A DNA stretch of 64,000 nt. Origin: an uncultured Chloroflexia bacterium (lineage in GTDB: Bacteria > Chloroflexota > Limnocylindria > Limnocylindrales > CSP1-4). The notes under the pieces were generated by a model, which was not told the DNA's origin, made no database searches, and worked only from the letters and a program-made list of their open reading frames with translations. Each line of letters begins with the position of its first letter. The stretch's first letter is position 1. The stretch lies in assembly GCA_963813335.1 (NCBI GenBank), contig CAWEYL010000005.1, forward strand, positions 51,180-115,179. The letters are read 5' to 3'. This document shows positions 46,137 through 48,774 of this stretch, piece after piece. Both the position numbers and the translations under genes were made by a program.

Positions 46137-48774
46137 ATGGCCGACCTCCTCACCCGCCCCGACAGCCGCCCGGAGACGGACCCCGTTCCCGAGCCCGAGT
46201 CGCTCGCCGACCGGCTCCTGGCGACCCGCTCGCCGCAGCGGCCGCAGTCGTCGGCGCGCATCCGCATCGAGGTCGACGGCCGGGTCGTCGAGGGCTTCGA
46301 GGGCCAGACGATCCTCGAGGTCTGCCGCGACAACGGCATCGAGATCCCGACGCTCTGCTACGAGCCGAAGCTGCCCGGCTTCGGGGCGTGCCGGATGTGC
46401 GTGGTCGAGGTGGAGGGCGAGGAGCACCCGCCGATCTCCTGCTCGCGGACGTGCGAGCCCGACATGAAGGTCCAGACCCAGACCGAGGAGGTCCGCCGCC
46501 TGCGCCGGACGAACCTCGAGCTGATCTTCAGCGACCACAACGCCTACTGCCTGCCGCCCTGCCAGAACAAGTGCCCGAGCCACATCGACATCCCGGGCTT
46601 CCTCAAGGCCAACGCCGAGGCCAACTGGCGCGAGAGCACGCGGATCTTCAAGCGGACGATCCCGTTCCCCTCGGTCCTCGGGCGGGTCTGCCCGGCCCCG
46701 TGCGAGGAGCACTGCCGGCGCGACGAGGTCGACGAGGCGATCGCCATCCGCGACAGCCACCGCTACGCCGGCGACCAGGTCCTCAAGGCGATGCTCGACG
46801 AGGACGTCGATCCGCCGCTGCCGTTCGAGGTCCAGGCACCGTCCGGTCGGCGGGCCGCGGTCATCGGCTCCGGCCCGGCCGGGATGGCGGCCGCGTTCTA
46901 CCTCCTGCTGGCCGGCCACGAGGTCACCATCTACGAGCGCGACCCGGCGCCGGGCGGGATGCTCCGCTACGGGATCCCGCAGTACCGCCTGCCCAAGGTC
47001 GAGGTCCTCGAGGCCGAGTACGAGTCGGTCACCCGGCTCGGCGGCAAGATGGTCTGCAACATGGGCCTCGGGCGCGACTTCACGCTCGACGACCTGACCA
47101 ACCAGGGCTTCGACGCGGTCGTGGTCGCCATCGGCTGCTACGACACCAACAAGCTGGGCATCCCCGGCGAGGACGCCGCCGAGGTCCTCGACGGCCTCGA
47201 GTACCTGCGCACCGCGACGCTCGGCCTGCCGTACCCCGAGCACGCCGGCAAGCGCGTCGTCGTCATCGGCGGCGGGTTCACCTCGATGGACTGCTCGCGG
47301 ACGTCGGTCCGCCAGGGCGCCAGCGAGGTCACGCTCGTCTACCGCCGCGACATGAAGGACATGCCGGCGTCCAACGAGGTCCACGAGGCCATCGAGGAAG
47401 GCGTCACCGCCATCTTCCAGGCCGGCCCGACGCGGGTCGTCCTCGACGACAAGGGCAACGTCACCGGCGTCGAGTTCATCCGCATGGCGCTCGGCGAGCC
47501 CGACGCGTCCGGCCGCCGCCGCCCGGAGCCGGCGCCCGGCACCGAGTTCATCGTCCCGTGCGACCGCGTGCTGCTCGCCATCGGCCAGGGCCCGGACCTC
47601 ACCTGGATCGGCCCGGGCTCCGAGGGCCCGGAGGCCACCAAGCAGCGCCGCCTCAAGGCCGACGCGGTCACGTTCGAGACCGGCCGGCCCGGGCGTCTTC
47701 GGCACCGGCGACGTGCGCATCGGCGCCGCGACCGTGGTCCAGGCCATCGCCGAGGGCCGCCGCTCCGCGTACGCCGTCGACGCGTTCCTCAAGGGCCTCG
47801 ACCTCTCGTCGATCCGGGCCCGCCAGACGCTCGCCGAGCCGCAGCCCGAGTTCCTCTCGATCGTCCCGTTCACCGGCGAGATCAAGGAGCCGCGCTACCG
47901 GATGGCGGCCATGGAGGCCGAGGAGCGCAACCACAACTACATCGAGTACGAGCTGCCCTACACCCGCGAGGCCGCGGTCGCCGAGTCCACCCGCTGCCTG
48001 CAGTGCACCTGCGAGGCGATCGGCTTCTGCGACCTGCGCCGCCTCGGCATCGAGTACGGCACCACGCTCAAGACGCTCGAGCCGCAGTACCACCAGGGCG
48101 CCGGCTACCGGAGCGTGACCGAGAACCGCTTCACCGGGGTCAACCACGACTACGTCCGTGACGACTCGCACGCGTTCATCCTCCGCGAGCCGTCGCGCTG
48201 CATCGACTGCGGGCGCTGCGCCCAGGTCTGCTCGGAGGTGGTCGGCGCGGCCTGCTACGACTTCATGCGGATCGGCTTCGACACGCTGGTGACGACGCCG
48301 CTCGACATGAGCCTCAACGACACCCCGTGCGTGTCCTGCGGCCGCTGCGCCGAGACGTGCCCGACGGGCGCCCTCATGCCGAAGCCACGGATCCTGCAGA
48401 AGTACGACGTCGACGAGAGCCGCTGCATCCTGTGCGGCATCTGCGTCGACGCGTGCCCCTACGACGCGCTCCGCGACGGCGGCGACATCGAGCTCGCCCA
48501 TACGAGCCGGTCCGAGCCGATGATCGACCTGATGGCGATCGCCGCCATCGACCGCGAGACCGAGATCACCTACATCCGGCGCGAGCGCGGCTGGGCGGAT
48601 GCCGCCGCCGCCGAGGGCCGCGTGCTCGACCCCGCCCGGATGCTCCCGATGCTGCCCGCCACGATCGCGGGGCTCCCGTCCGGCAACGGCAACGGGCATG
48701 GGCACGGCGACGGGCACGACCACTCGAATGGCCACGGCGCCGGGACGGCGCTGCTCGGCAGCGGGCACGAGTAG
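46137..48774 (+). CDS. NuoG-N / GltD-like FAD-NADP(H) domain / ferredoxin / NuoI C-half fusion (StnC-like; frameshift near 47690)
   Basis: IPTLC..GACRMC..SC (2Fe-2S); PPCQNKCP and [30 protein letters not shown]; three CxxCxxCxxxC motifs. Confidence 0.8.

What the first reader, a model, noticed from the sequence alone, without database searches (positions are those of the whole stretch)
46137..48774. NuoG replaced by an StnC-like GltD fusion: possible NADPH-linked proton-pumping complex I
Seen: the NuoG-type 2Fe-2S domain is followed by HNAYC, the start of the HxxxCxxCx5C motif. This motif is interrupted by a full GltD/NfnB-like flavin domain ([38 protein letters not shown]) and resumes afterwards ([13 protein letters not shown], about 47990-48030). 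Two more 4Fe-4S motifs follow. There is no molybdopterin-like domain. Established: the YRR motif of GltD-family proteins binds the 2'-phosphate of NADP(H), and a NuoG-like subunit with an embedded GltD domain occurs in the soluble Sporomusa-type transhydrogenase StnABC. Inference: this complex oxidises NADPH to reduce quinone and pump protons, or makes NADPH by reverse electron transport.
Basis: partly seen in the sequence, partly recalled or inferred. Interest (0 to 1): 0.85.

Follow-up and report, generated by a model that had tools for sequence, protein, structure and literature searches.

The report
Complex I with spliced-in NADPH module
This gene encodes a flavin and iron-sulfur protein of the NADPH-oxidising transhydrogenase type that, with two partner genes, sits inside a split nuoI gene of the bacterium's only respiratory complex I operon, so the proton pump may take electrons from NADPH; here the gene carries a one-base frameshift that looks like an assembly error.

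Summary
The motifs and domain order are real. However, 46137-48774 is not one open frame. A single extra base near 47691 splits it, and 13 of 13 relatives lack that base. At least eight more one-base insertions lie in nuoA-nuoI. I read these as assembly errors.

The intact protein (848-888 aa in relatives) is an NfnA/StnC-type subunit. It has a [2Fe-2S] domain, then a GltD-type FAD/NADPH domain inserted in the His-ligated cluster motif, then two [4Fe-4S] sites. It has no molybdopterin-like domain.

Its tail is the C-terminal half of NuoI. The N-terminal half of NuoI is fused to a cluster-less NuoE upstream. The operon therefore reads nuoABCDH-[I(N)::E'-F'-G'::I(C)]-JKLMN. It is the only complex I found in this 81%-complete genome.

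The design occurs in all 45 sampled genomes of the class (Limnocylindria by named relatives). It also occurs, dispersed over several loci, in Ktedonobacteraceae and other Chloroflexota.

NADPH use is plausible but unproven, and the NuoF-like subunit remains. None of my searches found a paper describing this. This scan has met the same design in other genomes.

The parts
38388..39575 (+). Methyltransf_28 (MidA/NDUFAF7-type, name recalled) methyltransferase gene directly upstream of nuoA. It may be an assembly factor. Its membership in the system is inferred from position only.
   Evidence: Pfam PF02636, E 3.8e-47
39600..40214 (+). nuoA. The Pfam match stops at profile position 70 of 99 at the ORF end, so there is probably a further frameshift near 40200.
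   Evidence: PF00507; frame change in the GC3 plot
40438..40995 (+). nuoB (N2 cluster subunit; the ORF may start further upstream)
   Evidence: PF01058, E 2e-27
40996..41566 (+). nuoC, broken by three one-base insertions (about 41006-41010, 41124 and 41471)
   Evidence: PF00329 on the 41198-41563 piece; gaps against L013, L015 and L016
41566..42784 (+). nuoD, broken by a one-base insertion near 42577
   Evidence: PF00346; gap against 3 of 3 relatives; omission in contigs of runs X1 and X2
42819..44125 (+). nuoH, broken by one-base insertions near 43083 and 43746
   Evidence: PF00146 in three pieces; gaps against relatives
44122..44800 (+). I'E' fusion gene. It joins the NuoI N-terminal half (first CxxCxxCxxxCP motif; NuoI model positions 1-64 at 44161-44355) to the NuoE helical domain (44483-44797), which has no [2Fe-2S] domain. 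It is broken by a one-base insertion near 44465-44478.
   Evidence: It is one ORF in relatives. Gap against relatives.
44803..46128 (+). F': a NuoF/BfuB-core FMN subunit of 441 aa, with no extra Fe-S domains. Its N3-type motif reads C-G-K-T-I-P-C, so the second Cys is missing.
   Evidence: PF01512 and PF10589; PDB ranking; motif table
46137..47690 (+). G', N-terminal piece (frame 0). It holds [2Fe-2S] at 46254-46484 and the start of the His-ligated cluster motif at 46503-46553. It also holds the GltD-type two-cluster region at 46548-46787 and the FAD/NADPH domain at 46854-47663.
47685..47692 (+). Site of the one-base insertion (+1 frameshift) inside G'
   Evidence: Omission of one base at 47691 or 47694 in some contigs of runs X2 and X9, and in none counted for X1.
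47692..48774 (+). G', C-terminal piece (frame +1). It holds the end of the flavin domain and the rest of the His-cluster motif (47992-48030). It also holds a two-[4Fe-4S] ferredoxin-like domain (48178-48375) and the NuoI C-terminal half (48388-48525 and beyond). A His/Gly-rich tail lies at 48682-48738, and the stop codon is at 48772-48774.
48781..49377 (+). nuoJ
   Evidence: PF00499
49374..49685 (+). nuoK
   Evidence: PF00420
49682..51646 (+). nuoL
   Evidence: PF00361, PF00662 and PF01010
51646..53304 (+). nuoM
   Evidence: PF00361
53301..54791 (+). nuoN
   Evidence: PF00361

Best explanation
The gene (G') encodes the NADPH-binding FAD and iron-sulfur subunit of a three-gene electron-input cassette, I'E'-F'-G'. 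The cassette is of the Nfn/Stn (Nfn-type Bfu) transhydrogenase kind. It lies inside the nuoI gene of an otherwise 11-subunit-type complex I operon. The N-terminal half of NuoI is fused to a cluster-less NuoE-like domain, and the C-terminal half is fused to the end of G'.

Shown by sequence: the domain order, all Fe-S ligand motifs, the FAD and NADPH motifs, the complementary NuoI halves, and the complete Q module and membrane arm.

Inferred pathway:
1. NADPH gives a hydride to FAD in the GltD-type domain.
2. Electrons pass one at a time through the two GltD-type [4Fe-4S] clusters to the His-ligated cluster, the equivalent of N5.
3. They then reach the two NuoI clusters, which the two half-proteins build together.
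4. They pass to N2 in NuoB and on to quinone, probably menaquinone, at NuoD/NuoH.
5. This drives proton pumping by NuoL, NuoM and NuoN. The path should be reversible, so quinol plus proton-motive force could make NADPH.

The FMN subunit F' may give NADH a second entry. In this order its N3-type motif has lost one Cys, so that entry may be weakened.

The module has lost the Fe-S domains that Stn needs for electron bifurcation, so I expect no bifurcation.

The frameshift in this window is most likely an assembly error.
For: ARCHITECTURE
- Pfam domains of both pieces support the domain order.
- The intact ortholog matches 9bov_A at E 5e-162 (query residues 38-771), StnC 8oh5_C at E 3.5e-142 and 9n5u_A at E 1.5e-139.
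- StnC is described as a GltD NADPH domain fused with NuoG-type Fe-S domains, with electrons running from FAD to C7, C6, C5, C4, C3 and B1 (PMC10482914, passages).

SPLIT NuoI
- The NuoI model TIGR01971 matches positions 1-64 in I'E' and positions 70-116 in the G' tail. That model is the best NCBIfam hit of the tail (E 5.8e-12).
- In the whole genome these are the two best NuoI matches, and none reaches the family cut-off.
- PDB NuoI/TYKY chains align to tail residues 19-76, well beyond the Cys motif.
- The I'E' fusion is one ORF in relatives.
- Complex prediction of NuoI-N with the G' tail gave weak support: score 0.35 against a best control of 0.00. The mark was reached by 58 of 80 solved complexes and 2 of 110 mismatched pairs. 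At 0.60 or under, only 7 of those 80 and both mismatches reached it. The runs agree in at least 76% of contacts, and the partner's pLDDT is at least 52. The pass may come from the model's memory of solved NuoI.

CONSERVATION
Across 21 aligned G' sequences all Cys/His ligands are invariant, as are the FAD GxGxxG motif and the glycines of the NADPH motif. Y-R-R is at least 90% conserved.

CONTEXT
The genome has one NuoD locus, one NuoH locus and no intact NuoI. The second NuoF-like gene sits beside formate dehydrogenase genes.

DISTRIBUTION
The I'E' fusion was found in 45 of 45 sampled genomes of the class (loci read).

LOSS OF BIFURCATION PARTS
- F' aligns only with the StnB core, residues 112-527.
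- E' matches only profile positions 2-64 of 145.
- An Stn variant without the StnA cluster lost the physiological activity (PMC10482914).

FRAMESHIFT AS ARTEFACT
- All nine breaks in the operon are single-base insertions.
- GC3 stays near 1.0 after each break.
- About 198 frame breaks occur genome-wide, with other clusters of 5-6 in 7 kb. pntB is split in the same way.
- Short-read contigs of close relatives lack the extra bases at five of the sites.
Against: - No activity, cofactor or co-purification data exist. NADPH preference is inferred from the YRR motif and from homology alone.
- F' is conserved and keeps the GRGGAG, GEET and most other FMN/NADH motifs, so NADH could be the main donor.
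- One distant member (P0138) has lost YRR and the GGG motif.
- The loss of the second Cys of the N3 motif is seen in 15 of 18 rows. A possible substitute Cys lies upstream in 13 of those 15. The effect on the cluster is unknown.
- My tree of 21 NuoF-like proteins puts F' in its own clade. That clade lies inside neither BfuB-type nor NuoF-type proteins, so the origin of F' is unresolved.
- The complex prediction gave only weak support.
- Nine insertions within about 7.5 kb is far above the genome average. At the G' site no contig counted for run X1 showed the omission (0 of depth 27.3 at 47691 and 0 of 23 at 47694). The contigs come from relatives, not demonstrably from this strain, so a truly broken operon in this strain is not excluded.
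Confidence: 0.6

Rival explanations
1. NADH through the FMN of F' is the physiological donor, as in ordinary complex I. The GltD-type domain is then a structural leftover, a regulatory NADP(H) sensor, or a minor side entry.
For: F' is conserved across all lineages and keeps most FMN/NADH motifs. In family f4, Ktedonobacteraceae and f46 the N3 motif is canonical. One distant G' (P0138) has lost the NADPH motifs while keeping all Fe-S ligands. The genome encodes PntB, so NADH and NADPH can be interconverted elsewhere.
Against: The FAD and NADPH motifs, including YRR, are invariant or at least 90% conserved in 21 sequences spanning families only 41-45% identical. A useless site would not be expected to stay that way. 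In the order of this window the N3 motif that wires FMN to the chain has lost a Cys in 15 of 15 rows. The motif that reads N-A-D-E in the aligned PDB HydB and StnB chains reads N-G-Y-G here.
Confidence: 0.2
2. In this particular strain the operon is a decaying pseudogene cluster, and the frameshifts are real.
For: There are at least nine frame breaks between about 40200 and 47692 and none in nuoJ-N. This is far above the genome mean of about 8 per 100 kb. At 47691/47694, run X1 showed no contig with the omission.
Against: All breaks are one-base insertions. There are no deletions, no in-frame stops and no loss of the GC3 signal. Similar clusters occur at three or more other places in the genome, and pntB is also split. 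It would be the only complex I of the genome. The gene is intact in 15 of 15 relatives' loci.
Confidence: 0.1
3. The module still bifurcates or confurcates electrons like Stn/NfnABC or the predicted Nuo-Bfu. For example, it might couple NADPH, NADH and ferredoxin to quinone reduction.
For: All three subunits rank closest to Bfu-family structures. Schut et al. predict membrane-bound Nuo-Bfu enzymes (PMC9304861, passages).
Against: The parts tied to bifurcation are missing. There is no [2Fe-2S] in E'. F' has no N-terminal [2Fe-2S] domain and no C-terminal two-[4Fe-4S] domain. Non-bifurcating homologs are said to lack exactly the B2-B5 clusters (PMC9304861). An Stn variant without the StnA cluster lost bifurcation (PMC10482914).
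Confidence: 0.05
4. The cassette encodes a soluble transhydrogenase-like enzyme that merely lies within the nuo operon and does not dock on the membrane complex.
For: Its closest solved relatives are soluble enzymes. In other Chloroflexota the cluster lies apart from the membrane-subunit genes.
Against: The two halves of the essential subunit NuoI exist only as fusions to E' and G'. The stand-alone clusters always carry nuoB (4 of 4 loci read). In the Ktedonobacteraceae genome G264, a nuoA-C-D-H locus lacks nuoB and nuoI.
Confidence: 0.03

Closest known systems
NfnABC / StnABC, the Nfn-type members of the BfuABC family (C. saccharolyticus 9bov, S. ovata 8oh5, 9n5u)
   Same: The three genes come in the same order: NuoE-like, NuoF-like, then a large Fe-S flavoprotein. 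G' shares the defining layout of NfnA/StnC: [2Fe-2S], a GltD-type FAD/NADPH domain inserted in the His-ligated cluster motif, then two [4Fe-4S] sites. Identity is 36-46% over about 730 residues.
   Different: G' has no FdhF/molybdopterin-like C-terminal domain. F' has no extra Fe-S domains. E' has no [2Fe-2S] cluster. The ends of the cassette are fused to the two halves of NuoI. The genes lie inside a nuo operon rather than standing alone.
Canonical 14-subunit complex I (NuoA-N) with the NuoEFG N-module
   Same: The Q module and membrane arm are complete. The input module is built from homologs of NuoE, NuoF and the N-terminal Fe-S part of NuoG.
   Different: The module lies between the halves of nuoI, not between nuoD and nuoH. 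NuoI is split over two polypeptides. The N1a site is absent. The molybdopterin-like domain of NuoG is absent. An additional FAD/NADPH domain is present.
Predicted Nuo-Bfu complexes (Schut et al. 2022, PMC9304861, passages read)
   Same: The idea is the same: a Bfu-type module replaces NuoEFG as the electron input of a proton-pumping, menaquinone-reducing complex I.
   Different: Nuo-Bfu is described as a 14-subunit operon of Deferribacteres, Proteobacteria, Planctomycetes and Nitrospirae, with a full bifurcating BfuBC core. Here the core has lost those clusters, BfuA is of the Nfn (NADPH) type, and NuoI is split. Their data set required a ferredoxin-type domain in BfuB, which F' lacks. By my inference F' would therefore not have been collected. 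Their supplements were not visible to me.
PRK12814-type 'putative NADPH-dependent glutamate synthase small subunit' proteins of about 657 aa (NCBIfam NF009454)
   Same: This is the best NCBIfam model for G'. Residues 38-698 match profile positions 4-631 of 657 (E 2.9e-163). The architecture is the same and there is no molybdopterin domain.
   Different: The score of 545 bits is below the family cut-off of 916. G' also carries the extra NuoI half.
11-subunit complex I relatives with other input modules (cyanobacterial NDH-1 with ferredoxin, archaeal Fpo with FpoF)
   Same: An 11-subunit core, nuoABCDHIJKLMN, takes electrons through a lineage-specific donor module (PMC3144371 and PMC4758237, passages).
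   Different: Those modules are separate subunits that dock on an intact NuoI-type subunit. Here the module is covalently tied to both halves of NuoI.

Membership tests
NfnABC/StnABC (Nfn-type Bfu transhydrogenase) | Large subunit with an N-terminal [2Fe-2S], a GltD-type FAD/NADPH domain inserted in the NuoG-type His-cluster motif, and two ferredoxin-type [4Fe-4S] sites | tested here: met
   Pfam layout. Alignments to 9bov_A and 8oh5_C over query residues 37-772.
NfnABC/StnABC (Nfn-type Bfu transhydrogenase) | FdhF/molybdopterin-like C-terminal domain with two more clusters (StnC residues 683-1172, which mediates the tetramer) | tested here: not met
   No Molybdopterin or Molybdop_Fe4S4 hit. 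The alignment to StnC ends at residue 701 of 1172. Domain roles come from PMC10482914.
NfnABC/StnABC (Nfn-type Bfu transhydrogenase) | BfuB/StnB with an N-terminal [2Fe-2S] domain and a C-terminal two-[4Fe-4S] domain (clusters B2-B4) | tested here: not met
   F' is 441 aa and has only Complex1_51K and NADH_4Fe-4S domains. It aligns only to StnB residues 112-527 of 584.
NfnABC/StnABC (Nfn-type Bfu transhydrogenase) | BfuC/StnA with a thioredoxin-like [2Fe-2S] domain | tested here: not met
   E' covers profile positions 2-64 of 145 only. In other families the domain is present but lacks the second Cys pair.
NfnABC/StnABC (Nfn-type Bfu transhydrogenase) | NADPH-dependent, ferredoxin- and NAD-coupled electron bifurcation | not testable with these tools
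   This needs enzyme assays.
Respiratory complex I (NuoA-N) | Membrane arm subunits NuoA, H, J, K, L, M and N | tested here: met
   Pfam hits for each. Several are broken by one-base insertions in this assembly.
Respiratory complex I (NuoA-N) | Q-module subunits NuoB, NuoC and NuoD | tested here: met
   PF01058, PF00329 and PF00346
Respiratory complex I (NuoA-N) | NuoI as one two-[4Fe-4S] ferredoxin-type subunit | tested here: inconclusive
   Both halves are present, but on two polypeptides. Pairing has only weak support: score 0.35 against a best control of 0.00.
Respiratory complex I (NuoA-N) | N-module: NuoE with [2Fe-2S], NuoF with FMN and an N3 cluster bound by four Cys, and NuoG with a molybdopterin-like domain | tested here: not met
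   The E' cluster domain is absent. The N3 motif lacks its second Cys. There is no molybdopterin-like domain.
GltD/NfnB-type NADPH flavoprotein domain | Two [4Fe-4S] motifs, FAD GxGxxG, an NADPH Rossmann GxGxxx motif and the Y-R-R 2'-phosphate motif (the role of YRR is recalled) | tested here: met
   Fer4_20 and Pyr_redox_2. Best matches are NfnB/GltD chains 4ylf_B, 5jca_L and 2vdc_G. Motif positions. Conservation.
Nuo-Bfu (predicted by Schut et al. 2022) | A full bifurcating BfuBC core in place of NuoEF, in the usual operon position | tested here: not met
   The core lacks the extra clusters. The cassette lies within nuoI. The family description comes from passages only.

The most novel reading that the evidence does not exclude
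Chloroflexota have a second, independently assembled kind of complex I. A de-bifurcated Nfn/Stn-type cassette was inserted into nuoI of an 11-subunit core. The result is a proton-pumping NADPH:menaquinone oxidoreductase. It is the sole complex I in Limnocylindria and a second one in Ktedonobacteria. It may also run backwards to make NADPH from quinol in these trace-gas-oxidising soil bacteria. This would also account for the old remark that many Chloroflexi genomes have 13 of 14 complex I subunits and lack only NuoG (PMC4453560).
Probability: 0.4. Interest if true: 0.85.

Novelty: new variant of a known kind. Interest (0 to 1): 0.75.

Why it matters
Complex I is treated as an NADH enzyme. NADPH-driven proton pumping by a complex I has, to my knowledge, not been shown.

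If this module works as its sequence suggests, two things follow:
- A very abundant group of soil and freshwater bacteria couples the NADPH pool directly to the quinone pool and to the proton-motive force.
- The N-module of complex I was acquired more than once.

The split NuoI is also a rare case of a two-cluster ferredoxin fold divided between two polypeptides.

Practically, these genes are annotated today as 'FAD-dependent oxidoreductase', 'formate dehydrogenase major subunit', 'ferredoxin' or 'hypothetical protein'. Metabolic reconstructions of these lineages therefore miss or mis-score their complex I.

A cultured carrier exists. A Dictyobacter alpinus protein was named among the I'E' relatives, so the idea can be tested at the bench.

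Tried and rejected
1. Tree of 21 NuoF-like proteins (10 F', 6 BfuB-type, 5 short NuoF-type; Chloroflexota only; unrooted). The three groups are each one side of a branch (support 100/98, 96/96 and 100/99). With only three groups this says nothing about which is sister to F'. I therefore do not claim that F' descends from BfuB. The G000 formate-dehydrogenase-type copy was left out because it is frameshifted.

2. Metatranscriptome run X15. Its contigs lie on parts of the operon at 90-99% likeness. The tool warns that presence in an RNA library does not show transcription, so I claim no expression. Bins with little cover are not interpreted.

3. Whether the architecture exists outside Chloroflexota. 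I scanned 10 of the 800-900 aa proteins among the best 150 representatives with Pfam.
   - Seven are StnC-like proteins cut off at the start of the molybdopterin domain.
   - One (P0138) has the NuoI tail. Its source carries no taxon name.
   - One (P0265) reads like a frameshifted product.
   - One (P0211) is unresolved.
   No conclusion is drawn on other phyla.

4. Literature. Searches found no description of a GltD-bearing NuoG-like subunit in complex I or of a split NuoI. The terms were: StnABC + complex I; NuoI + GltD + NuoG; Limnocylindr + complex I; NuoI/split/NuoE/fusion/Chloroflexi; complex I/N-module/NADPH/GltD/11-subunit; BfuABC + complex I + membrane; CSP1-4 + NADH dehydrogenase; Ktedonobacter/nuo/complex I/NADPH; 9BOV. 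Subscription papers and supplements were not searchable.

5. I considered reading the gene through with a four-letter code step. I did not do this and used intact orthologs instead.

6. I did not run structure prediction of the single subunits. The tools give no coordinates, so the geometry of the N3 site could not have been checked.
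Full report
WHAT IS IN THE WINDOW

The window has 71.5% G+C, and third codon positions are close to 100% G+C. The coding frame can therefore be read from composition.

Near 47690 the composition signal jumps to the +1 frame. The original frame then turns into Arg/Pro-rich noise until a stop at 48161. The +1 frame continues with VFGTGD and the remaining motifs to a stop at 48772-48774.

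So the gene as printed is split by a +1 frameshift, which the finding does not mention. The cause is one extra base in GGCCGGCCCGGGC. All 13 relatives aligned there lack it. In 15 of 15 relatives' loci the gene is one uninterrupted frame. With start codons set, the relatives' proteins are 848-888 aa in the class and 790-805 aa in more distant families.

IS THE FRAMESHIFT REAL?

The same operon holds more breaks, all of them single-base insertions relative to relatives:
- three in nuoC
- one in nuoD, two in nuoH and one in the nuoI-nuoE fusion
- probably one in nuoA, whose Pfam match stops at profile position 70 of 99

A composition-based scan finds about 198 frame breaks without a stop in 2.54 Mb. 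This is a lower bound, since it caught only 5 of the 9 here. The scan also finds other clusters of 5-6 breaks within 7 kb on contigs C1 and C3. pntB is split in the same way.

Contigs of public short-read runs that are 90-99% like the stretch omit one base at these sites:
- 42577: runs X1 and X2, at all of their depth there
- 43083: run X15
- 43746: runs X1 and X9
- 44465-44478: runs X1, X2 and X9
- 47691/47694: run X2 (8.27 and 9.1 of depth 17.4) and run X9 (3.9 of 11.5), but none counted for run X1 (0 of 27.3 and 0 of 23)

These contigs come from relatives, not demonstrably from this strain.

The breaks are insertions only, there are no in-frame stops, and the codon bias is intact. With the genome's 81% completeness in only 7 contigs, I judge an assembly artefact at about 85-90%. 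A dead operon in this strain is not excluded.

WHAT THE PROTEIN IS

Pfam finds this order:
- a [2Fe-2S] domain
- the first 17 of 40 positions of the NuoG His-cluster domain
- the GltD-type two-cluster region (Fer4_20, profile 27-110)
- a pyridine-nucleotide oxidoreductase domain
- after the shift, Fer4_20 profile 2-29 (the RCLQC stretch), the Nqo3 ferredoxin-like domain and further 4Fe-4S motifs
- no molybdopterin domain

The intact ortholog of the same genus matches these solved structures:
- 9bov_A, E 5e-162
- StnC 8oh5_C, E 3.5e-142 (query residues 37-772 on StnC 3-701)
- 9n5u_A

9BOV is the C. saccharolyticus NfnABC entry (search listing and abstract start of PMC11829005).

The Stn paper (PMC10482914, passages) describes StnC as an NADPH-binding GltD domain fused with NuoG-type Fe-S domains, followed by an inactive FdhF-like domain. 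Its FAD does not bifurcate and feeds electrons along C7, C6, C5, C4, C3 and B1 to the FMN of StnB.

THE PART THE FINDING MISSED: A SPLIT NuoI

Upstream, the NuoI-like gene carries only the first CxxCxxCxxxCP motif and runs on into a NuoE-like domain. In the relative L014 this is one ORF of 297 aa (273 aa from the start codon used). It matches NuoI models over their first half (TIGR01971 positions 1-64 of 121) and matches NuoE/HoxE models behind that.

The last 144 residues of G' have as their best NCBIfam hit the second half of the same NuoI model (positions 70-116, E 5.8e-12). They align with NuoI/TYKY chains of solved complexes well beyond the Cys motif (query residues 19-76).

In the whole genome these two stretches are the best NuoI matches, and no intact NuoI is found.

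A complex prediction of the two halves with two clusters gave weak support only:
- score 0.35, best control 0.00
- the mark was reached by 58 of 80 solved complexes and 2 of 110 mismatched pairs
- at 0.60 or under, it was reached by only 7 of those 80 and by both mismatches
- the runs agree in at least 76% of contacts, and the partner's pLDDT is at least 52
- the pass may reflect the model's memory of solved NuoI

The gene order is nuoA-B-C-D-H-[I(N)::E'-F'-G'::I(C)]-J-K-L-M-N. That is exactly an 11-subunit operon with a three-gene cassette dropped into nuoI.

THE PARTNER SUBUNITS

F' (441 aa) ranks closest to Bfu-type HydB/StnB chains (about 349 bits). Respiratory NuoF chains score at most about 260 bits. 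F' aligns only with the StnB core, residues 112-527, so it lacks the N-terminal [2Fe-2S] and C-terminal two-[4Fe-4S] domains.

This is a similarity ranking, not a phylogeny. In my unrooted tree F' is a clade of its own.

Its N3-type motif reads C-G-K-(T/S/A)-x-P-C in 15 of 18 rows. These are all the rows of families f1-f3, the window included. 13 of the 15 have another Cys five residues upstream. The three rows from f4, Ktedonobacteraceae and f46 keep C-x2-C-x2-C.

The motif that reads N-A-D-E in the aligned PDB HydB and StnB chains reads N-G-Y-G here.

E' has no [2Fe-2S] domain in this family. In f2 and f3 the domain is present but lacks the second Cys pair.

These are the parts that Bfu enzymes need for bifurcation (PMC9304861 and PMC10482914, passages). 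I therefore expect a plain, non-bifurcating input module.

CONTEXT AND DISTRIBUTION

This 81%-complete genome has one NuoD locus and one NuoH locus. The only other NuoF-like gene is fused to a NuoE-like part and lies beside FdhA- and FdhD-like genes, so it looks like a formate dehydrogenase.

Named relatives are Candidatus Limnocylindrales/Limnocylindria MAGs.

The I'E' fusion was found in all sampled genomes of the class: f1 23 of 23, f2 4 of 4, f3 16 of 16 and f4 2 of 2. I read the loci of f2, f3 and f4 myself.
- f3 has the same full operon, with two unrelated genes between G' and nuoJ.
- f4 has only nuoB-nuoD-I'E'-F'-G' at the locus.

In four other Chloroflexota families (4 of 4 loci fetched) a nuoB-I'E'-F'-G' cluster stands alone. 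One of these families is Ktedonobacteraceae, by the names given to relatives, including a Dictyobacter alpinus protein.

The Ktedonobacteraceae genome G264 holds:
- that stand-alone cluster
- a nuoA-C-x-D-H locus without nuoB or nuoI
- nuoB, nuoD and a short nuoF-type gene together on a third contig (C16), which I take to be a canonical nuo operon; I did not read that locus in full

One search sampled two unpublished genomes (G309 and G212). Only the overall tally of 182 of 401 includes them, and no claim here rests on them.

At 50% clustering, the nearest full-length relatives outside the family are StnC/NfnA-like proteins of about 1000-1400 aa at 36-46% identity.

Close homologs are numerous in metagenomes (1115 proteins at E up to 1e-5 among the 8000 candidates scored). 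They carry only generic names.

HOW IT MOST LIKELY WORKS

Shown: the cofactor motifs and their conservation. All Fe-S ligands, the FAD GxGxxG motif and the NADPH-motif glycines are invariant in 21 sequences. Y-R-R is at least 90% conserved.

Inferred: NADPH reduces FAD. Electrons then move through the two GltD-type clusters to the His-ligated cluster, which in complex I is the exit towards NuoI. They pass through the two clusters formed by the NuoI halves to N2 and then to quinone, and protons are pumped. The chain should be reversible.

NADH may enter through the FMN of F'. The altered N3 motif in this order makes that path uncertain.

A rationale comes from potentials listed by Schut et al. 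(NADPH about -380 mV, NADH about -280 mV, menaquinone -74 mV; Table 1 passage). NADPH gives a menaquinone-reducing complex I more driving force. That these bacteria use menaquinone is my assumption.

LITERATURE

I read passages, not whole texts, of PMC10482914, PMC9304861, PMC4453560, PMC4758237, PMC3144371 and PMC5736913. For PMC11829005 and PMC12018979 I saw only listings and abstract starts.
- Schut et al. predict 'Nuo-Bfu' complexes in other phyla with a full bifurcating core. That design differs from this one.
- Spero et al. remark that many Chloroflexi genomes have 13 of 14 subunits and lack only NuoG. This design may explain part of that remark.
- None of my nine searches found a description of a GltD-bearing NuoG-like subunit in complex I or of a split NuoI. 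Supplements were closed.

EARLIER NOTES OF THIS SCAN

After I had reached the reading above, look-ups showed that the scan had noted the same design on this stretch and in at least seven other genomes. Those notes agree with mine and did not change my reading.

This report adds:
- the frameshift analysis
- the altered N3 motif
- the dispersed gene arrangement in G264 (Ktedonobacteraceae)
- the unresolved position of F' in the tree

VERDICT

The StnC comparison is right. The NADPH-linked complex I is a well-founded hypothesis, not a result. I rate it a new variant of a known kind, with interest 0.75.

Noticed in passing
window 38388-39575 (+); also L103:13331-14419: A Methyltransf_28 gene (PF02636, E 3.8e-47; I recall this as the MidA/NDUFAF7 complex I assembly methyltransferase family) lies directly upstream of nuoA. 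A gene with a similar N-terminal sequence follows G' in the f4 locus; that one was judged by eye and not scanned.
   Followed up: partly
window 40200-47692; G000 C1 about 546-556 kb, C1 about 8.9 kb, C3 about 477 kb: Frame breaks come in clusters in this assembly. There are at least nine one-base insertions in nuoA-G' and none in nuoJ-N. At least three other 7-kb stretches hold 5-6 composition-detected breaks.
   Followed up: partly
G000:C6:10154-11528: pntB (proton-translocating transhydrogenase beta subunit) is present but split into two abutting frames (profile positions 3-276 and 277-455). It looks like another assembly frameshift.
   Followed up: no
window 48682-48738: G' ends in a His/Gly-rich tail ([14 protein letters not shown]...). 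The tail is present in f1 sequences and absent in f2, f3, f4 and Ktedonobacteraceae. Its role is unknown; it might bind metal.
   Followed up: no
L100:4492-8655: In one relative, F' and G' lie in a single open frame of 1388 aa. This is either a real fusion or a lost stop codon in that assembly.
   Followed up: no
L122 (G127:C6:33350-36871): A BfuB-type NuoF homolog in another Chloroflexota genome continues directly into a GltD-type FAD/NADPH domain (864 aa, up to the end of the locus). This is a different way of joining the same two modules.
   Followed up: no
G000:C3:280656-289682: A formate-dehydrogenase-like locus holds FdhA-like pieces, a fused NuoE-NuoF-type protein with canonical motifs, a [2Fe-2S] NuoG-like start and an FdhD-like gene. 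It is also frameshifted. A separate ferredoxin-GltD fusion lies at C3:276017-278047.
   Followed up: partly
L101:12297-13543: In family f3, two unrelated genes (134 and 281 aa) sit between G' and nuoJ inside the operon.
   Followed up: no
L109:6379-10640 (G264:C38) and L106:7392-12654 (G264:C37): In the Ktedonobacteraceae genome G264 the variant complex I genes are dispersed. One contig carries nuoA-nuoC-(147 aa unknown)-nuoD-nuoH and another carries nuoB-I'E'-F'-G'. nuoB, nuoD and a short nuoF-type gene lie together on a third contig (C16), probably a canonical nuo operon that I did not read in full.
   Followed up: partly
window 40081-40995: The nuoB ORF has a long N-terminal extension before the Oxidored_q6 domain. 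The ORF is 304 aa here and 242 aa in L014.
   Followed up: no
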